NCBI GenBank assembly: GCA_028534125.1
Contig: CM052816.1
Span: 55,368,001-55,432,000 of the forward strand
DNA length: 64,000 nt
Source: Lama glama
Taxonomy: Eukaryota
Direction of reading: 5' to 3'
The notes beneath the pieces are model-generated. The model worked only from the letters and a program-made list of their open reading frames with translations, was not told the origin of the DNA and searched no databases. A program made the position numbers and the translations under genes. Shown in pieces: positions 8,361 through 64,000 of the stretch. Position 1 is the first letter of the stretch, and every line of letters begins with the position of its first letter.

Positions 8361-8492
8361 TTTTTCTTTTTTATTTTTTGGGGGGGGAGGTAATTAGGTT
8401 TATTTATTTATTATTTAATGGAGGTACTGGAGACTGAACCCAAGATCGCATACGTGCTAAGCATGCGCTCTACCACTGAGCTATACCCTCAC
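8361..8492 (-). mobile_element. Camelid Vic-1-type SINE
   Basis: gggaggtaattaggtttatttattt...gaggtactgg...tgaaccc...gtgctaagcatgcgctctaccactgagctataccc. Confidence 0.9.
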
Positions 8493-23050: not shown

Positions 23051-23144
23051 GGATGAAAGAGGGACAGTGTTGCAGGGTGGATTTAAAGTAGTCACTTGGA
23101 TGGAAGAGGGACGGTGTTGCAGGGTGGATTTAAAGTAGTCACTG
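23051..23144. repeat. 47-bp tandem duplication (2 copies)
   Basis: ggatgaaagagggacagtgttgcagggtggatttaaagtagtcactt / ggatggaagagggacggtgttgcagggtggatttaaagtagtcactg. Confidence 0.95.
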
Positions 23145-26384: not shown

Positions 26385-27531
26385 ACCGGGTAATATGCAA
26401 GATTCTGGGTGCCACACAGGGCAAAACACAGAAATGGCCCCAGTCCCTGGAGTTTAAGGTCTAATGGAGAGTCAGATAAGAAATAATCACATGTTACAGT
26501 AGGTCCTAGGATGCTCACATCCTGGCTGCTGTAATTGAGAAGAAGACAGGTGCAAGTTAACTTACTTTAGAAAACTCACTTTAGATAAAGAAGGACTCTC
26601 TGAAGCACTGACATTGAAGCTGTCAAACTGACACCTGCAGGAGGAGAAGGAGGCAGTCACGTGAAAGCTAAGGAAAGAGGCTTCCACTCTGAGGAAGCAG
26701 CAGGTGCAAAAACCCACAGAGGAGAAGGAAATATGCTTATTTGGCTACAAATGCCTAGTGGCCAGAATGGAGTTCATGAAGAAGGAAGGAAATGACATGA
26801 AATGGGGCTGGGTTAGTGGATGGTGATGGGTGGGCAGTGCATTAAAATCCATAGTAGAGATCTTGGATTTTATTCCAAGTACAAAAAAAAAAAGCGATTG
26901 AATTCTGAAAAAATGTACAAGTGCATTCAGCTCAGGCTCAGATAAGCCATGCCTATAGAATAATCTTTTTATTGGAATCACAAGGTTGTGACCAAAGCTT
27001 TGCTACCCTGGGTTGCAGTGCTCAAAAGTGCCCCTTTAGTTCTTAAGAGTGATAAATGACCCTCCTTTGACAGGTTCGAAATGTACACAATGGACTGAAA
27101 TGAAATGTTAAAAGTAAAAAGAAATGTACTTTTTAAATTTGCTATAGCCAAACACAACTTATGAGATCCTTTTTCAATAATGATAGAACAAAAGTATATT
27201 TTATTTTTCAAAAAAAAACACAACTGAATGCTTTTAAGCAGAGAATTGACATTTATGGGTAATGGAAAGTAAAATAAGGCTCTTGCTATCTCAGTTTTGG
27301 CTGCAGCACAAAGGCAAGAGACATCACATTCTTAAGTCAGATCCACACTGATATTTCAAAGTAGGGGTCTAAAAACTGGTTAGATGACACCTAAGGTCTT
27401 CTCCCACATTTTGTATATAAAGAGATGAGGAGCTGGAGATTAAAGAAGAGGGTTTTTTTTTAAAAGGATTTTTGGAGAGAGCTGTAGGAATGTCCTAAGC
27501 CCAATCATATACTGCCCAAAACACTACATGA

Positions 27532-34729: not shown

Positions 34730-34925
34730 TAGAGAGCCAGACTTCTGGCTCTGCTAATTATCAGCCATTTAATCTCAGCAAACCATGTACCAACCTTCTC
34801 CCTCAGTTTCCTCATATTTAAAATGGGGACAATAATTTACCTATTTTGTAGGGTCCTTATAAGACTAAGTGAGTTAACGAATGTAAAGCATCCAGATAGC
34901 GTCTGGCACATAATAAATGCTATAA
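34730..34925 (+). mobile_element. MIR SINE
   Basis: cctcagtttcctcatatttaaaatggggacaataat...gtaaagca...ctggcacataataaatgct. Confidence 0.75.
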
Positions 34926-35041
34926 AAACTGAGGTGAATATCATCTTGTAGATGAGTAACTTGACATAGAGAAGTTGAGGAATGTCCCATCAGTGCAAAA
35001 CATTAGGCATCCCTAGAGTCTAACTAGAGTGAGGTGGGGGA

Positions 35042-35051
35042 GGGGCGGGGC
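35042..35051 (+). promoter_or_regulatory. GC box (Sp1/KLF consensus) ~160 bp upstream of the pseudogene leader
   Basis: Exact GGGGCGGGGC in otherwise CpG-poor DNA; function unproven. Confidence 0.25.
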
Positions 35052-35199
35052 GATGGGATGATGAAGGGGGGTATTTACTTGGTAATCCCTATAATTTGTT
35101 TTGCCACAAAGAGTCACACTTTGGAACAATGAGCACTTAATTTCTTGTCTGTATCACATCCCTAGGATAAACAATTTCTATAAAATTTTCACATGCTGA

Positions 35200-36180
35200 C
35201 TCATAAATGCATTACAGGCATTCAAAATAGCCTTTGTTCTATTGTTCACTTGCTTTTGTTGCCTTGAATTTCAAGTATTATTTAGCATCTTAAATGTCAC
35301 AAAGGTTTTTACTATTATCACTAATTGTACTGAGAAGACCCAATACCACTTGCACACTGGAATGAAGCACGCTGTTACTGAGTACTAGACAATATGTTTT
35401 AAATTCATCACTTAGGTAAGTTTGCAACACAGTCAACAAGCACACCTCAACGCAGTTTTACATTATGAAATAAGAATAACCAAGTCCATCAACCCTGTCT
35501 AGGAACAATCAAAAAAGACAGGTCTTTCATGAATGGATATATTGAGCCATTATTCTATGACCTAAGGATGTTGCTTCTGTAGGGTATTATTCAGCTATGT
35601 AAAAACAAAGTGTATTATTTATTATTAGAGTTAAAATAGTCTCTAATTATACCCAGTTTGAGATCAATGACATAAAGGCAATTATGGTGCAATCAAGCAA
35701 AATGGCATTGTTGTCAGGTTCCACTTACCATTTCAAAATTACCACATTAGCAAAAGTCAAGCATTTGTTAGTGCTGCTGCAAAGCCAAGCAGATAGTTCA
35801 TTCACACGGGCTCCTTTGGAGTTTCTAAAGTTATGCTCATACCTGGGGAGCATGATTATTCATGGTGTTATAAACACCGTGAATTTTCTGTCTGCCCTCC
35901 CCCCACAAAACCTCAAGACTGGAGTTTACCTTCTCAAGTTTAATAGAACCTAAACTCACTTTTGTTGAGCCCCAGTCTTTATTAATTTCTTTATCAATCA
36001 GAATTTGCATTTTCTTGCATCTTCTTCAACTATCAGAGTGACTGTGAACATGCCATTGAAGAGAATGTTCAGACAATGGTTGGCTCTAGTTAATGCTATT
36101 TCCCAGTTAGCAAGATAAACCAGAAATATATCTGAAAAAATTCCATTGGTTGAAAACCTTTCTAAAATATATTGTGTACT
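35200..36180 (+). pseudogene. Decayed signal peptide + LRRNT + LRR array + LRRCT block
   Basis: One frame from 35221 gives FKIAFVLLFTCFCCLEF...ITNCTEKTQYHLHTGMKHAVTE (hydrophobic leader, then LRRNT-like NC..K....L..G....VTE). LRR-like pieces: KNNQVHQ, PLFYDLRMLLL*G, IQLCKNKVYFI, INDIKAI, NFLSALPPQ, QNLHFL. Then FNYQSDCEHAIEENVQTMVGSS*CYFPVSKINQK/SEKIPLV..C, comparable to the PKD1 LRRCT (NPFECDC...EEQQVRVV...CAGPGSLAGQ...IPLL..GC). Confidence 0.65.
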
Positions 36181-36204
36181 TTCAAGATTTAATAAGTACA
36201 CTAA

Positions 36205-36420
36205 TAAAAATAGCTAACACTATGTAGTACTTACCAGGGACCAGTCACTGTGCCTTACATATATTAACTCATTTAATCTTCACTGCAAACAAGAAGGAAG
36301 CTACCATTCTTCTCTTCATTTTGCTGAGAAAATGATTCATTTCCTCAGATTAGTTGGCTTACCCAAAGTAAAATAAATTGTAAGTCAAGTGAGGATTTGA
36401 ACCCGGCACTGGCTCCACTC
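36205..36420 (-). mobile_element. MIR SINE
   Basis: aatagctaacac...tattaactcatttaatcttcac...ggatttgaacccgg. Confidence 0.7.
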
Positions 36421-36475
36421 ATTTAAGCAGGACAGTATATGGTACGGCCAGTGGAGGGTTTATGTTTACTTGTAG

Positions 36476-36600
36476 TAGCTCCTTGGGGATTTAATATCTT
36501 ATACTGTGTCAAGACCACCATTGTGGACATGAATTCTCATTGAGGAAAATGTAAATAAAGTAGGTGTAAGACCTGTGTAAACTGTGGGTGCTGGGGAAGG
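36476..36600 (+). pseudogene. Possible decayed cysteine-rich exon (position where PKD1 has its WSC domain)
   Basis: tttacttgtag acceptor; reads APWGFNILYCVKTTIVDMNSH*GKCK*SRCKTCVNCGCWG. Cys-rich but motif match is weak. Confidence 0.2.
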
Positions 36601-37219
36601 GAGGAGGTGCTATAGGGCTTGAGCTAAATTAATTTGGGGGCTTTAAAAATTGTTACAGTTTTCCCTCTGAAATCAAGTCAGTTCATATTAACTGGAAGAA
36701 ATAATAAAAGTATTAAAAAAGAATAAATATTACCAATTGTTCTTGCCATTAGTAACGTGTTAAATGATGTTTTAACAGTCTTTTTCTATACCGTATGGAT
36801 GCATTTAAAAAAATTAAAGGCAGTTTATAGTACAGTGGTTAAGTGGATTCTCAGAAAGAGACCACTGAACCTCACATCTCTAGACTTCAGCTTCATCTGC
36901 AAAATGGGTATAAGACTAAACTAACACCCACTGAAGGATAGGCAGATGTTCCATATGAAATACTGAGCACGACGCTTGGCAGAGAGCAAGCACTCAACAA
37001 AAGTTAGATATTGTTTTAATATCAGCAATACAAAGCGTTTTCAACTTGCCTTCCTACCCAAGTCTAGATTATGCTGCAATAAATTTCCTCCTAAATACCT
37101 CCTTTGTGATCATTTGATTTTTTCCCTTAGGATAAAATTTCAAAAGTGAAATGGCTGTTTCCAAAGATATAAAATAAATATTCTGAGATTTTGTATATTT
37201 CCAAATTGATTTCCAGAAA

Positions 37220-37319
37220 NNNNNNNNNNNNNNNNNNNNNNNNNNNNNNNNNNNNNNNNNNNNNNNNNNNNNNNNNNNNNNNNNNNNNNNNNNNNNNNNN
37301 NNNNNNNNNNNNNNNNNNN
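37220..37319. other. Assembly gap (100 N)
   Basis: Run of N. Confidence 1.
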
Positions 37320-37440
37320 AAAAAAAAAGTGTGACAATGAATATATGTATGTTCATGTATAACTGAAAAATTGTGCTCTACACTGGAATTTGGCACAACA
37401 ATGTAAAATGACTATAACTCAATAAAAAATGTTTAAAAAA
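37320..37440 (+). mobile_element. Young camelid L1 3' terminus next to the gap
   Basis: gtgacaatgaatatatgtatgttcatgtataactgaaaaattgtgctctacactggaattt...gactataactcaataaaaaa; near-identical inverted copy at 43997-44152. Confidence 0.75.
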
Positions 37441-37454
37441 TTATGATCATTTCT

Positions 37455-37600
37455 CTTTTTTTTTTTTTTGAGAGGGGAGGGAGGTAATTAAGTTTACTCA
37501 TTTATTTACTTTTTTTTTTAGAGGAGGTACTGGGGATTGAACCCAGGATCCTGTGCATATTAAGCATGCACTCCACCACTTTGAGCTATACCCTCCCCCC
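37455..37600 (-). mobile_element. Camelid Vic-1-type SINE
   Basis: gaggtactggggattgaacccagga...taagcatgcactccaccactttgagctataccctcccc; flanked by direct repeat aattatgatcatttct. Confidence 0.9.
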
Positions 37601-40600
37601 TAAATTATGATCATTTCTAATATTTGCCAACTGACTTAGTTAAAAAATGGTGACACTTTAGATTTATTTTATACTAATGCAATTGAATTTTTATGTGTAT
37701 GTTGAGCATCTATACTTCTGTGAAATTGCTGTTCATGCCCTTTGTCCTCGTTTCCACTGGGGCCTTAGTGTCTTTCTCATTGCTTCATAAGAGTGCTTTC
37801 TGTTTTCACTTATTGATTCATGTATTCAACCAATATTTATTATTGGCACCTACTCTAGGCCAGTTTTATAACCTTTGTTTCACAGATTATGACATATTTT
37901 GTTTTCATCTGCTTTCATATTTTGTACATAATGACTTTGATGTACAGGTAATTTTAAATTTTAAGTAGTTAAAGTCTATCAATGATCTCCTCTGGCTTTT
38001 GACTTTGGTACTAAAAGGCCTTATCTAGAGGCCATATGTAAAATCTGTGTATAATTTTCTTAATGATTTTATTTTTCATATTTAAATATTTTAACTATCT
38101 GGAATTTATTTCATGGTAAGTTATGAAGTAGAAATCTAATGTAATCATTTTTTCTTTTTAAATAGCCAGTTGTTTGAAATCTATAAGCTTTATTTCGCTA
38201 AAATACTTATATCAAATATAATATTCTTCCATTTACTAGGATATTTTTCTAGTTTGCCAATTCTCTTCTATGAATCTATCTATACTTTCTCATTCTAGGG
38301 TCCTACTGTTTTAATTATTTCTTTTGAGAATTACATTTCAATGTCTGGTCTCCTCTATTATATTGTTTTTCCCCAAAGACACTCTTCCAGGGGAACTTTA
38401 GAGTAATTTTGTTTGGGTATAAAAATAATAAAATTAGGATTTTAATTGGAATTAGTTTAAGGAGTTATACATTAATTTGGAAAGAACGTATATCTTTGTA
38501 ATTTTTATTCTTCCTAGTACCAAACATGATGTCTATTTACTCAGATCATTTTAATATTATTGAATAAATTTAGTATATGTTCTCATATTGGCCCTACACA
38601 TTTATTATTAAGCTTCATCCAAGTTATTTGGTGTTTTTGTTCTATCACAAATGAGATTCTCCCTTTGTAATTTCTACTTACTTGTTGCTAGCATGTAACA
38701 GAACAATCTTACCTTTATATTTATTTTTTAACTGGCAACCATCAGTTTCTCCCTTACTTTGGGGATTTCCTAGGTAATAGTATTATCATTTGCAAAGATC
38801 ATAAAAATAATTTTTATTTCTCTTTTCCAGTATTTATACTTAATTTTTTTCTCACATAATTGTAACAAAAACTTCTTCAAACCAACAGTGGTAATATCAG
38901 GATTTTTTTGTCTTCATCTTCTCATTAATTGCAATCTCTTCATTGCTTCAGTATCGACCATGATAGTAGACATGGAATTTTTTACTAAAAAAAAAAAAAC
39001 TCCCTCCCATTTCTACTTTCATTAAAATGCCTTTTCTGTATCTATCTGGATGATCATATACCTTTCTTCCTTTGGCCACTGATGGCATATTGCATGAATA
39101 GATTTCCTAATATTAAAGCATCCTTTCAATTCTGAAATAAACTCCACCTAATCTTGGCATATTATTTTCATATTTTGCTGTAGAATCAATTTTTTCTACC
39201 ACTTTAAAATCTGTATTTATATGAAGTTATTTTGTCATTTCTTCTGTCATATCCGCCAGATTTTGACATGAGGCTCATGTAAAGCTTGTTTAAGTAAGTG
39301 GAAAAGATTTCCGTCTTTTCTGTGCTCTACCACAGAATGAACAGAAGGAAAAAACTCTTCTCTAGATATTTAATAGAACTTGCTAACAACATTTATGTAC
39401 GTGTGACCTTTCCATCTTCTTAAGATATAACATTTTATTTTAAATTCCTCTCTCAATGCCTGTGTAGTAAAATTTTTCCATCACAATCTTTCTTCCTCAG
39501 ATATCTGTAATGGTTACTCTTTTATCCTCAGGCTTTTGATAGTAGAGAAACCCTGGTGCTTTTCTTTCCTGGTAGATAATGTTTTTAAATGCCTATGTAT
39601 AGATTTTTTTTTAATTTTTGAAAGTCAAAATATTTGCCATAGATGTGTCTAGGTGTTGATCTTATTTAATATTACCAGAACTTGTAGATCTCTTAATATG
39701 AAAACATTTAATGTTTAGTATTTGTTCAGCTCCAGAAAGTTTTTTAATCTTTTTATTTCCTGATTGTTTCTTTTTCTACATATGATCTGTTCTCTTTTCC
39801 TGAAATTCCTATTAACGTATATTAGATCTCCTGGCTCAGTCTTTCATTACTTACCTTTAAAATTTTTTCACATTGTTTTCATCTCTTTATTCCTCTGAAT
39901 CCTGGGTGGAATCAGGGGTTATCATTTACTTTATTGATTGAATTTTCTGCAACAGCAAATCTGATCTTCATTTAGGTTTTAAATATGACAATCAATTGTT
40001 TTTCTTCTGTGCTCTTCTTTCTGACCTCAGATGGCTTTTCATGATCACTGTATTTTTGTAGCTGGAACAGCCTCTTCTCTTTCATGTTAAGATCATAAAT
40101 TAAAAACTTGAACTTTTCCCCTCTATTCTGAACAGTAACTGAACTTCATAAGAAGACATCTGCACTTCAGCACAGCCCCCTCCTTTTAAACAACAGTATC
40201 TTTTTCTACATGTGATGGCTTTTGCCTGATTGCTCATCCTTAAAGAGGGATCTGTACTTGTTCAGTACTTGGAAGTGAGATGGATTCTGTCAAAGATCAT
40301 TTAGGTCTTCGTCCAAATCTTTCAGATTCAGATTAAAAATGAAGCGAAAGATTGAGACAATGTAATTTTCCGTTCTGAGCATAATACTGATCCGCCTGGG
40401 TCACTAAGCCAGAGCTAAAGCCAGAGGCGGTCACAGCAGGAAGAATAGTCCTCAGGCTGGCGCTGAGCTCGTGTCTATTGGACAGCCAGGAATCCGCTGC
40501 AGCAATGCCCCAGTTCCTTGTTTGGCACGTTTGTCCTCAGGAGGAGCCAGATGAGCCTCTTTGGGACAGATGTCCGTGTTTAGTGTTAAGCCAGGACCAA

Positions 40601-41169
40601 AATCATTCCCAGCCCCACCAAGTGTGGCAGGTCCCAGGGGCACATGCCCTCTCCCTGTTACCCAGTGCCAGGCCACCTCCCCACGAGTCCCCCTAAATAA
40701 GGGATGGAGAGGAGGTTCTACTGAGAACTATGTTCCCTGACATCCCAGTCAGCTAGCAGAAAGCCTTGATTCACATTAGCCCATCCTTCACTTCAGTCTC
40801 CTCTGCCCTACAGCTGACAAACTTCCTGGCAAATGGGGCCATCCTTGCATATTTTCCATCATCAGTCTCTAATATTTCTGTTTGACTATTTTATAAGAGT
40901 GTAAGTGGAAATCTAAGGAAGCAGGAGGCTTTTTGTCTGTGCTCCGTGAGTTTCTTATCCAGGAATCCCTCAGTTTCTTTCTAATCTGCACTTAGGAAAG
41001 TGGTAGTGTACATTGCTAATGGGGATGAGGGGAAAGCCACATCAAGTTTCTCTAAGAACATAAGGGAAAGTTATCTTCTTTACTAAAGGAAACCAGACAG
41101 ACAATTTTTCTACTCAGCCTGGTGATCTTCACAAGCAGTTTGTTTTCCTCCTCTCTCTTCTTGATTTAG

Positions 41170-41327
41170 AGAAACAATGCAGAGAAACTCAGATAAAGGG
41201 TGTAGTGGTAACTGCACATGGATTTTTCTAATAGACTGGACTTGCTAACGATCGAAATTTAGTTCTTTTTTTCAGCCTAAGCTGGCAGGACATATTTCTT
41301 CTGGCTGAGACAAAAGGTTACCACTAG
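41170..41327 (+). pseudogene. Decayed exon, N-terminal half of C-type lectin domain 1
   Basis: Strong pyrimidine tract + AG at 41168-41169, GT at 41328. Reads EKQCRETQIK/GCSGNCTW.../LDLLTIE/FFQPKLAG/TYFFWLR with frameshifts; compare PKD1 EPLCPSDTEIFPGNGHCY...RFLVSRV...VWIG. Confidence 0.5.
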
Positions 41328-41554
41328 GTACTGAAAAAACACAAATCTGATTTTTGATAGAATTCAGGCTGAATTAAAAAGAAACATTATTAAAGCAGTC
41401 CAAGTATAAAATTATTAGAGATACGAATGATTAAAGAGGAACATACCCAAATGTGTTTGGCATTTCTTTCTAACTAAAACTTGCAAGAAAATAAGTATTT
41501 ACTTTCTTGGTTGCTCTTTTTAGGTTTAACTGTTTTAATAAAATACTATTTCAG

Positions 41555-41702
41555 GTAAATAAAGAAGGCAAACTCACAATTGTGATAGGAATCTCTCAAG
41601 CAAAGTCTGCACCACGCGATTCATGCCAGGAACCAGAGAAGGCTCTTCAGGAGAGTGCTGCCAACAATCGTGGCCATGGAGTAGTGGTGGGAAGCAAGTA
41701 TG
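41555..41702 (+). pseudogene. Decayed exon, probable C-terminal half of C-type lectin domain 1
   Basis: ctatttcag acceptor, G|gtgagt donor at 41703. Reads GK*RRQTHNCDRNLSSKVCTTRFMPGTREGSSGECCQQSWPWSSGGKQVW (PG.....GE.C......SG...W pattern). Confidence 0.45.
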
Positions 41703-42300
41703 GTGAGTGGGTGCTCTGGAGCAGAAAGATGGTCTCTTGGCTCCATTATAACTTCCCTTTGATGTCACCACAACCCAGTCCTGGGACTCTGTGTCCTCAC
41801 CTCCAATTCCCTTCTCAACCCTCAGCACCATGACTTTCAACTCTCAACTCATGACATAACAGCTTTTTATTGGTGGGCACAGTGAAGAGAAAGTTTTTAA
41901 ATGAGTCTTGATGAACAAACTGTTTCAGTTAGTTCATTATCTCCTCTTCCAGGACCAAGTATTTTCTGAAGCCAGCAGCTAGGTTTCTTTAAGTCTGATC
42001 CCAGTACCATTTAACACAAGACTCCCTCCAGTCTTGCCCACTTCTGACCCGCCTAACGTACTGTAATCAAGTGCTCACTTCAGAGAACAAATGTCTTCAT
42101 GTTAATCTCCTGCTTTTATTTTTAAACACTCCTTCATAAATGGCAGAGGAAAAAAGTCTAGTCCCTAAAGAGTTTTATATTCAAGTATTTTATGAATTGG
42201 CTCAACCTCATCATTCCTGGGGGACTTCCCTGGGCCCTGCTGGCACAGGCTAGCTAATTCTCACTGCTCCTTCAGAATGTTATTTCTTACCCTCTAACAG

Positions 42301-42640
42301 ACCCAGCACACCCCCAGCTGGGTTATGCTGGGATTTAACTGTGGTTATCAGCCTGGCTGCTAGCAGAGGAAGTGGGTGGGCTCTTGAGGTGAGCACTGCC
42401 ACCATGCTGGACGGGACTTGGGCAGTGTGGATATGCTGCCCCTGCAGCTCTGAGATTTCAAAGGGGGCCACAGAGCCAAATTTCCCAGGGACATCCACCC
42501 AGATAACATCATCCTTATTTCAAGGTCCCAGGTTCGCCAGCCAGGGAAAGTCAGTGTAAAAGATCTGCCTTGGCTGGCAGTTTCTGTCTCTCTGAGGATC
42601 TTGATTCTAACCAACCAGCCTGGTATCTGCTCCTCATCTG
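42301..42640 (+). pseudogene. Decayed exon: start of C-type lectin domain 2, followed by PKD1-like linker sequence
   Basis: ttcttaccctctaacag acceptor. Reads DPAHPQ/SWVMLGFNCGYQPGC*QRKWVGS*GEHCHHAGRDLGSVDMLPLQ (cf. PKD1 AWLQAQEQCQAWAGAALAMVDSPAVQ), then SLFQGPRFASQG.../VSLRILIL..P..C (cf. PKD1 MVFPGLRLS...QLRLQVYR). Confidence 0.6.
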
Positions 42641-43292
42641 TGCCGGCTTTCACTGCAAGAGGCCACAGCAGATACACATAGATACTATTGTTAAATAAAT
42701 GAATAAATGAATAGCACTGAACTAGCAGTGGTTTGGGATTCCACCACAGAGGTCATTAAAAAACTTAAGTTTTGTATTACTTCTAAACAAAGCAGAGAAT
42801 ACAGATGAAAATATTAGAATCAATTTTTCTAGAAAAATATTCTCATTATCTGATAAATCATAACCATGAAGTATCAAACAAAGTATGTTTTTATAGTACT
42901 TCTCATGTCTTTTGTAAAACAAGAAACTGTAAATAGTATGTATAGATTACTACATTAGAATTATTTCACATAGAATAAAATAATGGGGAAATTCAAAGTT
43001 ACATTGTTTAGGGCTAATTATAAACCATTTTTAATGTAATGGGCAGAAAGCTGAATATGCCCAAATTTATATTTATCATGCATTGAAAACTAGAAGCTTG
43101 ATACACTTTAAAGAATCTTTAGTAAGCAAATTGAATTAGCAGAATAAAGTAACAGAAAACATAATGTGGGGTTCTGGAAAGCAATAGGAAGACATGACAT
43201 TTAACGTACCTAGAAAACTTGGGCACAAAATCTTGTTTGGTAAATGAACTATAATTTCACTATCAGAATGTTTGTCTTTAAAAATATCTCAG

Positions 43293-43396
43293 GCGTTAAT
43301 ATCACCAAGTGAATCAGAACCAAATAGTTGAGCAAAACCTCAAAATGTGAAGTCAAGACATTGCATAAAAACCTTTCTGACCCAGAGTAGCTGAAG
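43293..43396 (+). pseudogene. Possible decayed exon of the PKD1-like cysteine-containing linker
   Basis: AG at 43291-43292, AAG|gtaaaa donor. Fragments SPSESEPNS and KCEVK/HCIK, collinear with PKD1 GSEPES...WCPGANICLP. Weak. Confidence 0.3.
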
Positions 43397-43489
43397 GTAA
43401 AAAGGAGAAGTGAAAAAGCCACAAGTGAAAAATAAATGGCCCAAAACCTCTTAAATGTTCTATACAAATAATCAGATTATTTGCAAATA

Positions 43490-43798
43490 TAAGACCCCTA
43501 CATTTCCAATGTTAAAAGCAAAGGTAATAAGTACTCAAAAATTATGCCTTTCTAATTTCACAATTTTCTGTTATCTATGCCCCTAAGACAATACCTGCTG
43601 TGTCTCTACGGTGGAAATGCTGTTTAATGTTGTGCTACTATGCATCTCTACCCAACTCCGCAGTCAGTAACATCACGTTGGTAGCTTGAATTCCACCATG
43701 GAGAGAGTATCTACAACACAGAAACTGGAGAACACTATAAATCAGAGTTTTTTCTTCCTTCAGAGACCTGGTTGTTAAACATTTACCAGCACACCCTG
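43490..43798 (-). mobile_element. MER33-like hAT element
   Basis: cagtaacatcacgttggtagcttgaa...ggttgttaaacatttaccagcacacc. Confidence 0.65.
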
Positions 43799-43996
43799 GC
43801 AACACTCTTTCAGGCCCTAAAAATTTAAGAAAGGTCTCAGTCTTCCCTGACTCAGGACCGAAATCCTGAATATTCTGGAATCCACACCAGCTGACAGGTG
43901 AGGTCTGAGTCCACACTAACAGTGTTCGGTATGCCTGCTCTTTTACTGTTCCTGGAGCCAAGCACTGCATGGTGCCAACATCATAAAGAGTGAAAA

Positions 43997-44152
43997 AAAA
44001 TTTTTTAACATTTTTTATTGATTTATAATCGTTTTACAATGTTGCGTCAAATTCCAATGTAGAGCACAATTTTTCAGTTATACATGAACATATATATATT
44101 CATTGTCACATTTTTTTCTCTGTGAGCTACCATAAGATCTTGTGTATATTTC
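43997..44152 (-). mobile_element. Young camelid L1 3' terminus next to the gap
   Basis: Reverse complement of the 37320-37440 sequence type. Confidence 0.75.
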
Positions 44153-44652
44153 NNNNNNNNNNNNNNNNNNNNNNNNNNNNNNNNNNNNNNNNNNNNNNNN
44201 NNNNNNNNNNNNNNNNNNNNNNNNNNNNNNNNNNNNNNNNNNNNNNNNNNNNNNNNNNNNNNNNNNNNNNNNNNNNNNNNNNNNNNNNNNNNNNNNNNNN
44301 NNNNNNNNNNNNNNNNNNNNNNNNNNNNNNNNNNNNNNNNNNNNNNNNNNNNNNNNNNNNNNNNNNNNNNNNNNNNNNNNNNNNNNNNNNNNNNNNNNNN
44401 NNNNNNNNNNNNNNNNNNNNNNNNNNNNNNNNNNNNNNNNNNNNNNNNNNNNNNNNNNNNNNNNNNNNNNNNNNNNNNNNNNNNNNNNNNNNNNNNNNNN
44501 NNNNNNNNNNNNNNNNNNNNNNNNNNNNNNNNNNNNNNNNNNNNNNNNNNNNNNNNNNNNNNNNNNNNNNNNNNNNNNNNNNNNNNNNNNNNNNNNNNNN
44601 NNNNNNNNNNNNNNNNNNNNNNNNNNNNNNNNNNNNNNNNNNNNNNNNNNNN
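44153..44652. other. Assembly gap (500 N)
   Basis: Run of N. Confidence 1.
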
Positions 44653-44852
44653 CAACTGCAAGGTTTAGAACACCTGGAGCTTGTATTTTGTAACCATATT
44701 CCTCACATTACCTACTACGTGGTAATTCTTTTTTAGCTAAGAGTAGTACATGCTGAAGAAACTAAACAGAGAAATTAATGTAGAAATGAATGGTGGGGCA
44801 GCTCTCTATTCAATATTTTACTGTTAATTATAAATTTGCTGCATAATTTCAG

Positions 44853-44970
44853 TTCCTAAGGAAGCTTAAATTTTGTTCTAATTATGGGAGACGAGTGGTG
44901 TGTATCAGAAGCAGCTGCTGCAGAGAGAGTTTTTGCTAACAGTCATTTCCAAATTATATACACACAAATG
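44853..44970 (+). pseudogene. Decayed exon with PKD1-like REFL motif
   Basis: aatttcag acceptor. FCSNYG/...YQKQLLQREFLLTV versus PKD1 ACANG...YALWREFLFSV. Confidence 0.45.
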
Positions 44971-45559
44971 ATTCAGCTTTTTCTTTTCACTTCAACTTTG
45001 ATGTGTGTGGGTTTGTAATTTCTTCACCTACAATGTAAAGAGAACTCAGTTAATCTCTCAAGATTTTATCATGCCTAGTCACTTCATTTTCTCTAATCTA
45101 TGAATAGCTGTGCAAGATAACCCAGCTTAAAATCACTTTTTAAAATATAGGCATAGAAGGAAGGACAGAGAAGGGAAAAAGGGACTGAGGGAGAGGAAAG
45201 AGGGAAGAAAAAAGATGAAAAAGGAAACAAGGAAGGGATAAAAAAAAAGATGACTAGAGGAATGGAAAGAAGTTTGGACAGAGAGTAGACTACTAGAAGA
45301 GTACAGAAGGAAGAGAAAAATGCAACTTCCTGGGTTGTTTCTGCATTAAAACAACACATATTGACCTAACAATGAAGTGTTAGCTAAAATGTTATAGCTT
45401 GCAGTTAGACTTTCCAGGACCATTCCTGATTTCCTGTCCCCTAGTAACTGTGAGGCCTTGGACAAATTATTTTCCAAGCCTTAGATGCCCCATCTGTAAA
45501 ATGGAGTTAATGGTAATACCTGCCACCTAAGTCTGACATCAGCGAGAGGAAAATAAGAA

Positions 45560-45975
45560 ATATAATGGGATACCATCACACCTAGCAGATAAGCAAAAAT
45601 GTTATTACCCAATAACAGCAAGTGTTGTTGAGGAGGTCAGGAAAAAAAATTCTCATATAGTTGATGGGAATATAAAGTGGAGAGCAATTTAACAAGAGGA
45701 AAAGTTGGAAATGCACAAACTCTGACTCAGCTATTCCTCTCCTAGGATGTCCCCTAGAAAAACTCTTGTACATGTGAACAAAGAGACACGTACAAGAATG
45801 TTTACCACTGCATTATTTATAATTGCCCAAAATAGAAAAACTCCAACATCCCTTAACAGAAAAATTGATAAATGATAATATATCCATATAGTAGTGAAAA
45901 TGGATGGTGTAGAGCCACTTGTATCAATTTAGATGATTTTCTTGCACAAATTGTTAAGTAAGAAAAAAAAAGAAT
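45560..45975 (+). mobile_element. Old L1 3' fragment
   Basis: gactcagctattcctctcctagga...gaaaaactcttgtacatgtgaacaaagagacacgtacaagaatgttta. Confidence 0.7.
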
Positions 45976-46194
45976 CAAGTTTCAGGTTTTAGAATGTCAA
46001 GGCAGAATCATAATGGAATCAGAAGAGGAATGAATTTCACCCAGGGGCCTGAATATGAAGCTGGATACAATAACTAATGTAATCTTGGTCATACATAAGA
46101 TAGAAATTTTTTTTAATATTAGGATGAGGCATTTAAAATTCCACATGAAAATCCATGTGTGATATGGGAGGAGGGAAGTGAGCCTCAAAGCAGT

Positions 46195-47200
46195 AGAATG
46201 TGGTATTCGTTCTTTTTGTCTGCCCAGCATCCCTATCCTTTAATTTGTTAACCATAATTTTTGTTTCTGTCAATCATAATCCCCCTTGAACCTCTATCTC
46301 TGACCAGTGACTGAACGTAAAATCCAATCTAAATCAGACACCCTCTGTCTCCTAGGAGTTTGAGCCTCGGGTGGAATTGCAAAAAGATACAAAGTGACGC
46401 CAATATCCCCCAAGAGCGCACGACTGATCTGGTCACAGGCTGATTACACTGGACTTTCTCTTTCTAAAAGGAGTAGCAATTTAAAATCACTATAATTGAC
46501 ACTTATTTTGGATCTGGATTTGCCATGCCTGCCTGCTATGCTTTGCCAGTGAAACCATCCATGGTCTTACTCACCATCATGGTGTCCCATAAAATGTTGC
46601 TTCTGGTCAAGGAACTCCACCTACAAGGGAGGAGAGGCAATGGGACTCACTATTCTATACTCCACGTTGATGGTGGTTAATTCTGCATTACAGGATATAA
46701 CCTGCAGAACACTGCTGTGGAGCCGTGCAGAGCTAGATGCAGCTGGATTTGGAAATGTAGCAGTAACTGAAGAGATTTGGCCTATCTTTGGGAAGGCACG
46801 TGCATGCTTTCAGGTGTACAAAGAAAAGAGTTGCATTAAGTGTTTTTCCTTTCTTTCCTTCTCTTTATCAGAAGTAAACATGGGAAGTAAAGTGTGCTTT
46901 GATATTGGGCAGCCAATAAAATGGATTGTAGTCAAGCTTTTTTGGCTGCTGAACATTATCCCCTTCCCAGTGGGTCTCAGTGGGAGGCACATCACCTAGA
47001 GCATTTAGCTTCGGGGAAGGGAATCAGATGCTGAAACTGAAATTTTGGATGTGAAGCTAGAGATGCAGTGGTGAAATTTAGGTGGTGACAATGGCAACAA
47101 CACACTCTAAAATCTAAGGCCAGCAAAAGTTGGAAAGAGTCACTACTTACATTAATTCTGTCATGGACCCTATGGTGATGTCTTCAAATTATCTGGCCTA
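46195..47200 (+). mobile_element. Deleted ERVL/MaLR-type provirus remnant with integrase fragment (~46400-46650)
   Basis: WSQADYTG/ITIIDTYFGSGFAMPA/TIHGLTHHHGVP*NVASGQGT..REERQW corresponds to ERVL integrase (WQVDYIG...IDTYSGYGFA...HGIPHSIASDQGT...RQW). Outer boundaries approximate. Confidence 0.7.
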
Positions 47201-47540
47201 GGATTGATACATGTCACTTTCCAAAACTAGGCATAACTACATCTGGTATTTTTCAAAAAAGCACTTGATTGTAGAATAGTAACTGCACAACATGCGGCCC
47301 ATTCTCCCTGTAAGCTGCCATGCTTTTTATACGCACTTGACTATGAGGGAGCCTCAGGCATAATACTTTAAGCTGAGCCTAGAGGCTGAGCTGTACGGGA
47401 CTCTCATAGCCCTCCTGGCTACAGTTTAGCAACTCTGACCCCCGCACTCCCTGAGTTCTGCACCAAAGAACGAGTTATGCAGTCCCTACGGAAGTCTCTA
47501 TCTTATCATGTACATAACCTGCTGTGTGGCGCATTCTCAG

Positions 47541-47761
47541 GGAAGCTGTCACAGCCACGCTCCAGGGCTTAAGCATCACGGCTTCTCTGGAACTGTCGAT
47601 GAGGAGACAATCACGGCACAAGGATGGAATCAAAGGCTCACCAATTATCCCAAGAAAAAACACTGTCTCCCCACCCCGACCCATTCCTTGTGTTCAGATT
47701 TGGTTGTGGCCAAGGGTCAGAATGTGAGATGCCTGCTGTGGACATTACTACATAATAAAAG
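47541..47761 (+). pseudogene. Decayed kringle-domain exon (kringle 1)
   Basis: cattctcag acceptor. GSCHSHAPGLKHHGFSGTVDEETITAQGWNQRLTNYPKKKHCL/HPDPF...SECEMPA/CGHYYIIK fits kringle C....G..YRG.....CQ.W...YP...HC..PD...EC..P.C. Confidence 0.55.
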
Positions 47762-48839
47762 GTAAAATTTTTACATTTTGATTCAGCAACTTTGACTCTA
47801 TGCTTGAAAACAGCTGCATCATGATGGCATCATCAAAACGCCCCTGGGGTCCAAATAGCTGAGCCAAAACCATAGGTGAAGCCCTCTGCTTCACTTCCGT
47901 GTCTGTATGGCTCATGAACGTTGTGGGTGGCACGTCGGTTAGAAGCAGTCTCCTTGGATCCGCTTTCTGCTTTGCAGTGGCCTCAATGCCTTAAGTTACC
48001 CTTGGGGAGGGCAATGTCAGGGACTTTCTCCTTCCCAAACTGGCTTGCCACTTGAAGGAGGAGATGATCCTTGCTGTCTAGTGACCCACATAGGGATGCC
48101 ACTGTGGTTGCTTATTGACAACAGGTGTGTGGTAGGGTGGAAACTGAGGGCCCCCAACTCTAATTCCTTACTCCCACATCAGAGGGAAGACCTCACCAAG
48201 GGGCTGCGGTTGGAACAGAGCGGGTGTTGGGAGACTGTCTGAGTGTTTGCTTCTTTCCTAACTCTCTCACAGCCCTCTTCCTTTAACCTTTCCTCTTCTG
48301 CTAGCCCTGCTCCAGCCTCTGCCAGCTTCTCCCCTGGGGTCTACCACAATGCCCCATGAAAACAGTCAAGTCTCAATCCTTATCATTTCTCTCCAAGTCT
48401 TGCAGATTCTAGAACTCCAGGTGTTTAATGCCAGAAGGTTTCTACTGTGCACTGCTCGGCCAAGGGGAAGGGTGGGTTCTGTTGGCTCTGGGCTCGGGGA
48501 GGGGAGAGTGAGAGATGGAAGGTATCCTCTACTTTGGGCTCTAACACATTCCCTCTAAAAGGCTCTGAAACATTAAACACATTTTGTCATCATAACAATT
48601 AATTTTCACCCATAAACCCATATGATAAATTCATAGCATAACTTTGATGTTATTTTACACTAAAAAATATCACAGCCTTATTATGACTAGAATATTTGAT
48701 CCTTCTTGTGCTGGGTTACATGACAAAGCATCCTACATTAACTGACGATAAAACCTGCCATGCCCAAATTGACTCTGTTACTTGATTTCCCTCCTAACTA
48801 TGGGAGATAAGTGATGAGTATCTTTTGCCCCACTACACA

Positions 48840-53582: not shown

Positions 53583-53599
53583 ACAAAAAAGGGGAACAA

Positions 53600-54172
53600 A
53601 AGGAATAGAATATGAGTATGATTTTATATGGTTAGAACATCTCTGGACTACACACACAAGTGCAACATAAGTTAACCCTAGAGAAGGTACCTGGGGGCTG
53701 AGGGTCAAGGGTATGAGAATCAATTTCCTCTGGGTACTCTTCAAATATTTTGAATTTTCTACCATATGACTATTTTACTTCTTTAAAAAATAATGAAAAT
53801 CACAAACTGGACAACTTGGAAAGGCCAGTCTAGCTCCATAGTTCTTTGTGAAGTCAGCAGACACAGCTCAGCTTCTCTTTCTGTTCAATCTTGCTTTCTT
53901 TCATTTTCATCCAGAAGTACTGACCTCAAGGGTGCTCGCTAATAAACACGCTGCCTTCTAAACTTCTTCTCAGGGTGTGCTTCCCAGGGAAGGAATCTTA
54001 CAGCTACTCTTTCAGCAAATTCATAAAATTTTCAAAAGTAAGATATTTTAGCTGTAATTGGTTAAGATTACTGACTCCACCTCAACTTCTGCTCCTTCCT
54101 GCTCCCCATCCCATTGTGTACTGCTGGAGTGGCAACGGCATTTGGGGTGTGGTTAAGTTTAGTTGGGAATAT
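53600..54172 (+). repeat. Local duplication copy A (old L1 3' piece + LTR33 piece + Arthur1 5' piece)
   Basis: Collinear with 62940-63465 over ~520 bp, including the inter-element junctions. Confidence 0.9.
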
Positions 54173-54179
54173 AACCAAT

Positions 54180-55750
54180 GAGGTTAAAGTCCATTGTTCT
54201 TGTCTAAATTACATACATTAACTTGTCCTAATTATAACATCAATACCTATTCATAGCAGAATTTTGCAGAAAATAAAAATCATCTCTGAAACCTCCACTG
54301 TTAATAGTTCGGTATATTCCCATACCATCTGACTCCGTTGTCCTTGAACTAACTCCTTGGGACATTCCCAGTTCAGTCCTGTCAAGAAATCTTTACTCAG
54401 AAAGTCAGACACAATCTTTAAATACCTGTTTTTTTGGATGAAAAGACCAAGATAACAAAAAATCGAAGTGCTGCATCTACAATCATTCATTAGAGTCAAT
54501 ACTAAACAGTGAGACTTTGGCCTCTTCCTTCTCATCACTGTCTTCCAGTTATCATCGAAGACTTCTTGGTATTCCACATCCAATTAGACACACACAAATT
54601 CCTAGTCGGGATCTCAATGATTCATTTGTTACATATGTTGATGGCACATCAATATCTGACCATTTTTCCAAGTCATAAATCAACATCTTCCTTTCCCTAG
54701 TCAAAAGCTCCAATGCTATTATACATCATAAATTGGAATACAAATTGATCAATTATTTAGTCTGTCAAATCCCTAAGAGAAAGAGCAAGAATAAGCCTAA
54801 TGCAATTATTTTTTTATTACCAAGCATGCTTTTGATGGTGAGAAAACTAACAGGTGTTTTTCCTCACTGTTGGTCAATTTGAATCTCACCCACAAAGTAA
54901 AATCAACTTTAGTTATTACACAACGAATCAATAACCACAGCGCTGTTACACTTCAGGGTGGATTTTTTTTCTTTATTGACCTAACAGAGACTCATGACCA
55001 AGTGGAAGAGTGTTTAATGAGCTTGAAAATGAAGCCATTCATTTGAACTGAAGAGAACAACACATTCTCCCGTCACCTCATATTAACCCACTGTTCCTGT
55101 TATGGAGAAAACTAGAGGTACTAATAATGTCGAGGGCCCAGGTACAAACACTCCAAGTGCAGTACCTTTCAGGTCTTCAGCACTGCTGATAAACACTAAG
55201 CAAATTTTTCCTCAGTGACTCCTCAGTTTCTAGCCTCTTCACAGATTTCAGTACTGCTGGACCTCCTGAATTACGGTCTTACTCCATCCTATTTCACTGA
55301 GCATAATTCTGATCCAGCTGTTAGGATTTGGATATTCCCAGAACTGGATTCAGACATGAGATAGCAAGCAGTAGCCAGCTATATTAAGCATTAAAACAAT
55401 TCTGGGGTAAACCAGAAATATAATGCCACAAACTCGGGTTTCCAGAATCGATCCTTTATATAACTGGCAAAATGTAATTTTGCTGATGTAGAAAAGTCTT
55501 GAGTGATGGAAAAAATACTCCTTGCCAGAGTCAACCCATACCCTTTGAGTGTTTTTCTGTGACACACAAGTTACATGGCCCAACAGTCTATCTCAGCAAC
55601 ACTGAGACCAGTCATCTCACAGAAGCAAAGCAGTTGATGAAATTACTGAGCTAAAGAACGCACAGCATAGTGCATTTATTGAGAAGAAAGAAAGTCTGAG
55701 TTCTGTAATGTACCTGCCAAGAATTTGTCTGAGTTCTTGTTTATCCAAGA
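54180..55750 (+). pseudogene. Possible decayed large Ser/Thr/Pro-rich (mucin-like spacer) exon
   Basis: About 1.5 kb with no repeat I recognise. Successive + frames give S/T/P-rich peptides: PSDSVVLELTPWDIPSSVLS, SLESILNSETLASSFSSLSSS, PTVPVMEKTRGTNNVEGPGTNTPSAVP, DSSVSSLFTDFSTAGPP. Confidence 0.3.
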
Positions 55751-61965: not shown

Positions 61966-62939
61966 TCAGGCATTGGACTGAATGCTGGTGATTGAATAAA
62001 AGGCTTTTGGCGAGGGAGTAAAATTTCATCTGAGACCCAAAATAACTGAAAATTAACCACCCAAGAGAGCTAGAGAGAAAATGTGTGTCTCTGTGCAGCA
62101 TGGGAGGGGAAGGAGAGAGAGAAGGGAGAGGCTGGGGGCCGGTGATAGTTCTGATGATGCGGGCAGGGGAGTGTCTTGTAAGAACATTCCAGACACAGGG
62201 ACCAGGAATATTTGGAATATAAATACCAAACTAACAAGTTAAAGTGCAGGCATCCAATATAGCAGACAACTGTTTATGGGTCTAATCTTTTTTTAAAAAA
62301 ATACTTGATTTTTATCACACGTACAACTGGTAAAAATGTAGTATATGGGGATCTGTCCACCCTAGATATATCCCTGGGAAGAGGGATGGGCTGTTGTATT
62401 TTCTAAAACTATTTAACTGGAGCCCCAAAGTATTTTCTGAACTAAATCTATTCCTAGAGTTATTTTATGAGCTAAAATTCAGAAGCAAAGTGTTTCACTT
62501 TCAGAATGAGTAGCAATGCAAGAATCAGGAAAAAATATGCCTCATATTCAAGTCTATAGTTGCTCACATAAAAACCAACCATCAGTAGTGTTAATCCTGG
62601 CCCTATTTTTTTTTAAACAGATTTGATGGAATGGGAACATCTGGGGATATAAAACATCTTTCTCTAGATGCTTTACTTAATTACTCCCTCCCTACTCCCC
62701 AAGGCTTGCTGTTTCTCTTCAGTACTGATAGGTCTGGTTAGTGTATTCAGGACTGACAGATGTTAACATAAGGGGAAGCTGAGTGAAACGTATATGGGAA
62801 CTCTCTGTACTATTTCTGAAACTCTTCTGTAAGTCTGAGATTGACTCAAAATAAGTATTTTTAAAAACAACAACAATGAAGAACCTATGTATATACTATG
62901 CTGCCATTTGTATAACAGGGAGAGAAATGAAATAAAGAA

Positions 62940-63465
62940 ACAGACATATGAACATGATTTTACGTGGTTAGAATATCCCTGGAAGTACAGAACTGGTAAT
63001 GTAGGTTAACTCGGGAGAAGGCACCTGGGGGCTGAGCGTCTAGGGTAAGAGAATCAATTTCCTCTGGATATTCTTTTTGAATATTTTGAATTTTCTACCA
63101 TTTGATTATTTTACTTCTTTAAAAAATAATGAAAATCAAAAACCAGACAACGTGGAAAGGCCAGTCTAGCTCCAGAGTTCTTCGCCAAGTCAACTGCTCT
63201 TTCTGTCCAATCCTGCTTTCTCCCATTTTCATCCATAGGTATTGACCCCAAGGGCACTCAATAATAAACACGCTGCCTGCTCAACTTCTCAGCGTGCTTC
63301 CCAGGGAAGGAGTCTTACAGCTATTCTTTCAGCAAATTTATGAAATTTGCGAAAGTAAGATATTTTAGCTGTAACTGGTTAAGATTACTGTCTCTATCTC
63401 AACTTATGCTCCCTCTTGCTCCCCATCACATTGTGTGGTGCTGGAGTGGCTATGGCATTTGGGAA
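62940..63465 (+). repeat. Local duplication copy B
   Basis: Matches 53600-54147 (gaaggcacctgggggctgag...gaatcaatttcctctgg...ggaaaggccagtctagctcca...aaagtaagatattttagctgtaa). Confidence 0.9.
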
Positions 63466-64000
63466 TAAATTTCATCTGAGTTGATGGGATACATTTATGT
63501 AGTTTACAGAAGCTTCCTGTATAATCAACAGTTATGGATCGCTGTCCTATTGTGGGAATGGTTTCCAGGAATATTACTCGCACCCACTGTGCCAATTCAG
63601 TGTCAGGACACAATGGTGCAAGGCGAGGTGTCGTACTGAGATGTGAATGTGTCCTATAGCACCAGATACTGGGATTTTGCGGGGAGTGGTGAGAAAACAC
63701 TATGAAAATGTAAGGAGTCAGATGCTAATCTCTGGAAAATCCTTTCACCATCAGACGTATAAAATGATAGGTAAAAGGTACGGTTCTCAACAATGCCTAC
63801 TCAAAATGGAATTTCTCCTGTCAGATAACATAAAACTCATAATATGCCATGATAATGAGGATAACCCATGAGGCCTGGTAAATGACTGTCATCAGTTCAA
63901 AAAGTACTTAAGATTAGTTACTGCACAAGAAAACTTGAAATGCCCAGAGATCTTATAGCTCACATATAAAAGAAATTTAACAGGAATTTTCCAAAATTTG
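63335..64000 (+). mobile_element. Arthur1-like hAT (Tip100 group) deletion derivative: 5' non-coding region joined to transposase C-terminal region
   Basis: aaagtaagatatttt...ggaatggtttccaggaata...cccactgtgcc...catcagacgtataaaat follows the Arthur1 5' sequence as I recall it; from ~63826 NIKLII...LVNDCHQFKKYLRLVTAQENLKCPEIL..Y.RNL..IF.NL is hAT transposase. Confidence 0.8.

What the first reader, a model, noticed from the sequence alone, without database searches (positions are those of the whole stretch)
35200..36180. Apparently intronless ~1 kb signal peptide + LRR cassette with a PKD1-type LRRCT
Seen: hydrophobic KIAFVLLFTCFCC and LRRNT-like NCTEK....L..G....VTE in one frame, several L..N.I/L..L remnants, and YQSDC...EENV...CYFPVSKINQ...IPLV..C at the end. 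Known: PKD1 has only two LRRs encoded on small exons. Inference: this gene had a longer LRR array in one large first coding exon, so it would be a distinct paralog rather than a PKD1 copy.
Basis: partly seen in the sequence, partly recalled or inferred. Interest (0 to 1): 0.7.

Follow-up and report, generated by a model that had tools for sequence, protein, structure and literature searches.

The report
Decayed polycystin-1-like gene relic, unproven
This stretch is not a working gene; it most likely is the badly eroded first exon of a long-dead relative of the kidney-disease gene PKD1, but its supposed long leucine-rich-repeat array could not be told apart from chance.

Summary
The quoted motifs are present at the stated place, but no frame is open (13-22 stops each), the strict LRRCT pattern is not met, and three generic frameshift-aware LRR tests put the block at background. 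Pfam, PDB, a 1.84-billion-protein phmmer scan and word searches gave no relative. The best support lies outside the finding: 10 kb downstream, on the same strand, WSC-like, PKD-like and C-type-lectin-like motifs follow in PKD1 order and spacing (1 chain here, 0 in 40 simulated 128-kb sequences; motifs chosen after looking), without room for small introns. Further PKD-like blocks follow, by eye only. Most likely this is the first coding exon of an anciently dead PKD1-family gene away from the PKD1 locus. Its front module spans 323 codons against 176 residues in PKD1. Whether the extra ~150 codons were LRRs, an intron or an insertion is open; the window's strongest + strand splice donor lies inside the block. 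No PKD1 or Pkd1b sequence could be fetched, so homology was never aligned. I found no earlier scan note and no paper on this relic.

The parts
35207..35209 (+). Candidate start codon; one base out of frame with the hydrophobic stretch, across a run of four A
   Evidence: Seen in sequence; role inferred
35224..35262 (+). Hydrophobic, signal-peptide-like stretch KIAFVLLFTCFCC
   Evidence: one of 16 equally hydrophobic stretches in six frames
35323..35382 (+). LRRNT-like segment NCTEK...AVTE, same frame as the hydrophobic stretch
   Evidence: by-eye resemblance; my pattern for it did not match
35383..36027 (+). Middle part: putative decayed LRRs, intron or insertion. By-eye cores in changing frames near 35475, 35562, 35636, 35737, 35952
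   Evidence: Positions; not above background
35416..35421 (+). Consensus splice donor (tag|gtaagt), best-scoring of 3132 + strand GT sites
   Evidence: approximate, recalled weight matrix
36028..36175 (+). LRRCT-like remnant: first Cys position is Ser, one stop, one frame change, last Cys codon at 36173
   Evidence: loose pattern only
36176..46122 (+). Putative ancestral intron between the LRR block and the WSC block; holds repeats and two assembly gaps
   Evidence: Acceptor-like AG before 46123, rank 213 of 4444; no intact donor at 36176; match to a PKD1 intron position is recalled
46123..48124 (+). Block B: decayed WSC-like (46199-46270), PKD-like (YFGSG 46504, YALP 46537), lectin-start-like (46756-46830) and further PKD1-like segments, with no room for small introns
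   Evidence: Motif chain 1 here, 0 in 40 x 128 kb simulated (post hoc); donor-like site at 48125, rank 27 of 3132; no Pfam or PDB hit
54128..55600 (+). Block C: PKD-repeat-like remnants (FSPV 54372, FESHP 54878, RVFNEL 55007)
   Evidence: By eye against recalled PKD1 only; no peak with a viral PKD-domain profile, no PDB hit of meaning
53599..54146 (+). First copy of a local ~550-base duplicate, overlapping the start of block C
   Evidence: 82.4% over 552 columns, E 2e-155 (pieces)
62934..63463 (+). Second copy of the duplicate, directly before block D
63464..64000 (+). Block D: weak PKD-repeat-like remnants (ANSVS 63591, YWDF 63667), running off the window
   Evidence: By eye only; least certain block

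Best explanation
35207-36175 is the eroded first coding exon of a PKD1-family gene that died long ago at a locus other than PKD1. In life it encoded a signal peptide, an LRR module longer than PKD1's (up to about 8 repeats) and an LRR C-terminal cap. It was spliced across about 10 kb to a 2-kb exon for WSC, PKD and C-type lectin domains, then to PKD-repeat exons, giving a PKD1-like surface receptor ectodomain. Today it makes no protein. Shown: motifs, stops, positions, spacing. Inferred: homology to PKD1, exon limits, number of LRRs, age.
For: Motif chain WSC-like -> FG.G -> Y..P -> lectin-start-like once on the + strand at 46262, 0 on the - strand, 0 in 40 x 128 kb of order-3 Markov sequence (post hoc). 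Block start to lectin Cys is 227 codons (46123 to 46805); published WSC-start to lectin-start distances in four teleost Pkd1 proteins are 228-256 residues (PMC5318412 Table 1). The same paper calls PKD1 the only family member with LRR plus WSC in human, mouse and zebrafish, so an LRR exon is expected just upstream on this strand, which is where the block lies. Hydrophobic -> NC[ST] -> loose LRRCT chain once here, 0 of 40 simulations (post hoc). 323 codons against residues 1-176 (PMC10932423). The DNA is real: 5 runs not flagged as possible source, from 4 studies, hold 0.93-0.95 of its words.
Against: No LRR periodicity above background. A real 990-nt LRR array decayed in silico scored 17.7 or more in 25 of 25 runs at 0.25 substitutions per site and 13.4-40.5 in 20 more, against 10.4 for the block; only at 0.35-0.45 do the ranges approach or reach it. 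No relative in Pfam, PDB, 1.84 billion representatives or word searches. Strict LRRCT not met. Strongest donor of the window lies inside the block. Stop density in blocks A-D (2.8-8.4 per 100 codons) is like that of the gaps (5.1-6.1). A viral PKD-domain profile shows no peak at blocks B-D. The PKD1 resemblance rests on recalled sequence.
Confidence: 0.43

Rival explanations
1. Same dead PKD1-family gene, but with a PKD1-sized LRR module. The extra ~450 bases in the middle of the block are one or more short introns or an old insertion, so there was no long array and no single exon.
For: Explains the missing LRR periodicity. Best + strand donor of 3132 lies at 35416. 323 codons minus 176 residues leaves about 440 bases.
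Against: No acceptor scoring above 4 in the block (best printed 3.0 at 36037). The donor is about 30 bases downstream of where PKD1's first intron would fall (recalled). By-eye LRR cores lie inside the middle part. Block B lacks small introns, so short introns in A would be out of pattern.
Confidence: 0.2
2. Chance. The block is ordinary AT-rich non-coding DNA in which T-rich codons mimic a signal peptide and leucine repeats, and the cap motifs were picked by eye.
For: All database searches negative. LRR scores at or below the median of the window. 16 equally hydrophobic stretches. A second loose LRRCT hit elsewhere in the same window. Atlas recognition low for a natural ORF of the block.
Against: Does not explain the downstream WSC-PKD-lectin chain in PKD1 order and spacing on the same strand (88, 78), nor that most quoted motifs share one frame across 870 bases. 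Both chain tests gave 0 of 40, though post hoc.
Confidence: 0.22
3. An ancient processed or partly processed copy of a PKD1-type mRNA, dead on arrival or soon after. The gaps between blocks are later insertions, not introns.
For: Block B runs through several domains without room for small introns. Location away from PKD1 (19, inferred). Gaps are rich in repeats.
Against: The A|B gap begins right after the last Cys codon and ends at an acceptor-like AG, where PKD1 has an intron (recalled). The front module is too long for a plain PKD1 copy (79, 90). By-eye likeness to PKD1 is low, as for an old paralog.
Confidence: 0.08
4. A dead LRR gene unrelated to PKD1 (TLR-like or LRRC-like single-exon type) that happens to lie upstream of block B.
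For: Single-exon LRR ectodomains of about 330 residues are common in vertebrates (own knowledge). No alignment ties A to B.
Against: No transmembrane or TIR-like segment was seen after the cap. No hit to any LRR family (9, 11, 21). Strand, order and boundary fit with block B.
Confidence: 0.07

Closest known systems
Polycystin-1 (PKD1) of vertebrates
   Same: Order of motifs signal - LRR caps - WSC - PKD - C-type lectin - PKD repeats, and WSC-to-lectin spacing (227 codons here; 228-256 residues in teleost Pkd1, PMC5318412 Table 1). Resemblance of single motifs is recalled, not aligned.
   Different: No open frame. Front module 323 codons against 176 residues. Domains of block B sit in one uninterrupted stretch, whereas PKD1 has many small exons there (recalled). 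No TSC2 or NTHL1 neighbours (PKD1 synteny) were recognised; no intact gene was seen in the window.
Pkd1b (elephant shark, gar, several teleosts; absent from mouse and human; PMC5318412)
   Same: An ancient PKD1 paralog lost on the way to mammals, so a mammalian relic would be expected somewhere.
   Different: Zebrafish Pkd1b is listed without LRR, WSC or lectin domains. Gar pkd1b is on LG10; I recall that as matching human chromosome 17, whereas unchecked notes put this window on a scaffold with human 5q31 genes. Neither synteny was tested.
PKDREJ
   Same: An intron-poor PKD1-family gene present from shark to mammals (presence; intronless state recalled).
   Different: PKDREJ is intact in mammals and lacks the LRR-WSC front part (only PKD1 has it).
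Host-gene protein fossils and genes lost before mammals (PMC9004415; PMC5577775)
   Same: Old, frameshifted relics that BLAST-type searches miss; genes kept in opossum, chicken, lizard, frog or coelacanth and lost in eutherians.
   Different: No PKD or polycystin mention in the main text of PMC9004415 or in the four supplement files of PMC5577775; lists there may use identifiers I did not search.

Membership tests
PKD1 family (polycystin-1-like) | Significant sequence alignment to PKD1-family proteins | not testable with these tools
   No PKD1 or Pkd1b sequence could be fetched; single-frame searches found nothing, two of them outside the length of full PKD1
PKD1 family (polycystin-1-like) | WSC, PKD and C-type lectin domains in order behind the LRR module | tested here: inconclusive
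   Loose motif chain present, 0 in 40 simulations, post hoc; Pfam 0 families
PKD1 family (polycystin-1-like) | Run of PKD repeats | tested here: inconclusive
   Profile from 23 viral PKD domains shows no peak at blocks B-D, power unknown; low-confidence model of one candidate is all-beta but matches nothing
PKD1 family (polycystin-1-like) | REJ, GPS/GAIN, PLAT and polycystin channel domains | not testable with these tools
   Would lie beyond base 64000; no genome is held
Pkd1b orthologs | Grouping with gar and shark Pkd1b and shared neighbours | not testable with these tools
   No sequences, no neighbours in the window; gar LG10 location
Extracellular LRR module (LRRNT-LRR-LRRCT) | Tandem ~24-residue repeats with LxxLxLxxN core | tested here: inconclusive
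   At background; test excludes a regular array decayed by 0.25 substitutions per site or less, not one decayed by 0.4 or more
Extracellular LRR module (LRRNT-LRR-LRRCT) | Four-cysteine LRRCT cap | tested here: not met
   Strict pattern 0 hits; first Cys position reads Ser; only a loosened pattern matches at 36028; no Pfam hit for 35992-36171. Decay could explain this
Extracellular LRR module (LRRNT-LRR-LRRCT) | Signal peptide after a start codon | tested here: inconclusive
   Hydrophobic stretch at 35224 is 1 of 16; nearest ATG is one base out of frame; no SignalP available
Unitary pseudogene | Disabled reading frame | tested here: met
   13-22 stops per frame; motifs spread over frames
Unitary pseudogene | Intact ortholog at the syntenic place in another species | not testable with these tools
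   No vertebrate genomes or alignments on hand

The most novel reading that the evidence does not exclude
Early vertebrates had a further full LRR-WSC-PKD-lectin polycystin, neither PKD1 nor Pkd1b, with about 8 LRRs and a few very large exons. It survives unnamed in some non-placental vertebrates and was lost before the placental radiation, leaving this relic in mammals.
Probability: 0.28. Interest if true: 0.62.

Novelty: new member of a known kind. Interest (0 to 1): 0.36.

Why it matters
PKD1 is described as the only family member with an LRR plus WSC front end in human, mouse and zebrafish (PMC5318412). A second such gene, with a longer LRR module and a different exon plan, would change the history of the family, point to an intact ortholog in non-placental vertebrates, and give a natural comparison for the short PKD1 LRR module, which suppresses cysts in zebrafish (PMC10932423). 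As DNA in this genome it is a dead relic with no shown function, and the LRR claim itself is unproven.

Tried and rejected
Family and structure searches with single frames read through stops as X: Pfam 0 families for 6 and 8 queries; PDB 0 hits or unrelated hits at E 0.74-1.8; phmmer on 1,835,955,588 representatives, 0 at E <= 0.001, one frame of block A only; word searches 0 of 2200 and 0 of 2247 candidates, limited to 588-2000 and 1050-2995 residues; metagenome scan, 107 pattern matches, none confirmed. Atlas on two natural ORFs: only bacterial clusters under 0.9, low recognition. AlphaFold on single frames: pLDDT 49 and 35, best Z 3.8, no Foldseek match; uninformative. Attempts to fetch PKD1: a short cap motif gave 9 metagenome loci, all other LRR genes, none PKD1; 42 genome and 16 viral loci held no long ORF with the motif; a homolog search with one such ORF gave 2 rotifer proteins among 3 candidates. 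LRR core-chain test was dropped: codon-shuffled controls scored nearly as high as real arrays, so it measures composition. Four LRR scorers were tried in all; none favoured the block. RNA: four RNA rows and two guessed ones hold 0.09-0.34 of the words of 34900-36500; no reads were laid, so this is no evidence of expression. An LTR-internal-LTR reading of the 550-base duplicate was considered and not favoured: no TG...CA ends seen, and an LTR-like end lies inside the copies (67, by eye). A by-eye likeness of one short peptide to TLR5 was rejected as chance. Pkd1b identity is not favoured but not tested.

Full report
Setting. The window is mammalian DNA of 39% G+C with 600 N, two tRNA-derived SINE heads and no intact multi-exon gene that I could recognise with a crude exon scan. 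Unchecked notes of this scan call the genome camelid and place SLC22A4, CD14, TAF7 and TRIM52 33.8, 40.1, 40.5 and 54.5 Mb before the window on the same piece. If gene order is kept, that points to the equivalent of human 5q14-15 (my extrapolation), not to the PKD1 locus, which is flanked by TSC2 and NTHL1 (PMC5318412). No genome is held. The stretch is real: 14 of 24 listed runs hold at least 0.93 of its words; 9 are flagged as possible source, the other 5 come from 4 studies.

Observation. The quoted motifs are there. KIAFVLLFTCFCC (35224), NCTEK (35323), AVTE (35371), YQSDC (36031), EENV (36058) and CYFPVSKINQ (36094) share one frame; IPLV (36140) and a last Cys codon (36173) are in another. 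The three frames hold 19, 13 and 22 stops, so nothing here is translated as described. The hydrophobic stretch is one of 16 as strong in the six frames. The strict LRRCT pattern is not met; a loosened one matches 36028 and one unrelated place on the other strand; my LRRNT-like pattern did not match. A chain of hydrophobic stretch, NC[ST] and loose cap occurs once here and in 0 of 40 simulated 128-kb sequences, but I wrote it after seeing the sequence.

Is there an LRR array? Not demonstrably. With a hand-made generic profile that allows frameshifts and stops, the block scored 11.1 against best bins of 14.2-22.0, at most 8.7 at sampled points against a median near 10 over 128 bins, and 7.5 against 10.0 with nucleotide-level decay. 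Nine of 30 triplet shuffles of the block matched its score of 10.4. For power I decayed a real 990-base LRR array from locus L003: medians were 39, 26, 16 and 13 at 0.15, 0.25, 0.35 and 0.45 substitutions per site, minimum 17.7 of 25 at 0.25 and 9.1 at 0.45; a repeat gave 13.4-40.5 at 0.25 and 8.9-19.1 at 0.45, with codon-shuffled medians of 11-12.5. So a regular array that died recently is excluded; a very old or irregular one is not. A fourth scorer was dropped because its shuffled controls scored almost as high as real arrays. By eye there are LRR-like cores near 35475, 35562, 35636, 35737 and 35952 in changing frames, but such cores are common in T-rich DNA. 'Intronless' is also open: the best of 3132 + strand donor-like sites lies at 35416, inside the block, though no acceptor above 4 accompanies it.

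Searches. Pfam gave 0 families, PDB nothing of meaning, phmmer over 1.84 billion representatives 0 hits for one frame of the block, word searches 0 of 2200 and 0 of 2247 candidates (both length windows exclude a 4300-residue protein), a metagenome scan 0 confirmed of 107 (31). Atlas and AlphaFold on single frames were uninformative. All these read one frame of DNA whose frame seems to change every 30-60 codons, so they are weak tests, but they argue against a close intact relative in the libraries. I could not fetch any PKD1 or Pkd1b sequence, so no alignment to the family was made.

Surroundings. The best evidence is downstream. On the + strand, 46123-48124 carries a WSC-like Cys pattern (46199-46270), YFGSG (46504), YALP (46537) and a lectin-start-like segment (46756-46830). 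A loose four-motif chain is found once on +, never on -, and 0 times in 40 x 128 kb of order-3 Markov sequence; the WSC-like and lectin-like patterns each occur once in the window against simulated means of 0.125 and 0.4. These patterns too were written after looking and lean on recalled PKD1 features. From the acceptor-like AG before 46123 (rank 213 of 4444) to the lectin Cys at 46805 is 227 codons; four teleost Pkd1 proteins have 228-256 residues from WSC start to lectin start (PMC5318412 Table 1). That leaves no room for small introns. Blocks at 54128-55600 and 63464-64000 resemble PKD1's later PKD repeats by eye against recalled sequence only; a profile from 23 viral PKD domains did not pick them out, and their stop density is like that of the gaps. 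The LRR block ends at a Cys codon and block B starts after an AG at what I recall as a PKD1 intron position; no intact donor remains there.

How it most likely worked. Inferred: a first coding exon for signal peptide and LRR module, a 10-kb intron, a 2-kb exon for WSC, PKD and lectin domains, then PKD-repeat exons, making the ectodomain of a PKD1-like surface receptor. The front module spans 323 codons against residues 1-176 in PKD1 (PMC10932423). The gene died long ago; the weak LRR signal would need about 0.4 substitutions per site, which suggests a loss before the placental radiation (inference). I give 0.43 to a single long LRR exon, 0.20 to a PKD1-sized module with an intron or insertion, 0.08 to an old processed copy, 0.07 to an unrelated LRR gene and 0.22 to chance. 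About 0.7 in all goes to the block being the LRR part of a PKD1-like relic.

Known systems. It works like PKD1's front end if the reading holds; membership was not established. PMC5318412 (passages, section 21, supplement passages) reports pkd1b in shark, gar and several teleosts and not in mouse or human, and lists zebrafish Pkd1b without LRR, WSC or lectin domains; gar pkd1b is on LG10. That and the inferred location make Pkd1b the less likely identity, untested. PMC10932423 (passages) gave the LRR module size. PMC9004415 (passages) and PMC5577775 (passages 105; supplement searches) describe the class of old protein fossils and name no polycystin under the terms searched; the one supplement of PMC10195156 had no hit. 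Passages of PMC12344233 and PMC13197933 added nothing. Eight full-text searches showed no report of this relic; the library lacks most subscription journals, figures are not held, and gene-loss tables may list it under a bare identifier. Earlier scan notes hold nothing like it; one search returned giant-virus and protist proteins only among the 8 of 35 shown.

Verdict. Observation partly confirmed, interpretation partly supported. A probable dead PKD1-family gene, new member of a known kind; the long intronless LRR array remains a hypothesis. Whether the region is transcribed is left open. Interest 0.36.

Noticed in passing
window 53599-54146 and 62934-63463: Local duplicate of about 550 bases, 82.4% identical, 9.3 kb apart, holding an old LTR-like end; one copy overlaps the start of block C, the other ends where block D begins.
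   Followed up: partly
window 35416-35421: The strongest + strand splice donor of the window sits inside the finding; it could serve a present-day non-coding transcript. Not checked against reads.
   Followed up: partly
window 24944-24998 (+) and 26566-26634 (-): Two short open stretches with strong acceptor and donor scores (15.7 and 16.3); no gene assigned.
   Followed up: no
window 37323-37449 and 43991-44117: Inverted repeat of 127 bases, 89% complementary, each arm next to an assembly gap; probably ends of young repeats that were not assembled.
   Followed up: no
window 8419-8490 and 37522-37595 (-): tRNA-like matches in Rfam, most likely heads of tRNA-derived SINEs.
   Followed up: no
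window 23051-23143: Two tandem copies of 46 bases, 96% identical.
   Followed up: no
L008 and L009 (one contig), L001-L003, L005-L007: Animal LRR genes in metagenome contigs: an LRR-Ig-transmembrane type (closest hits rotifer proteins) and a long-exon LRR-transmembrane type of about 620 codons.
   Followed up: partly
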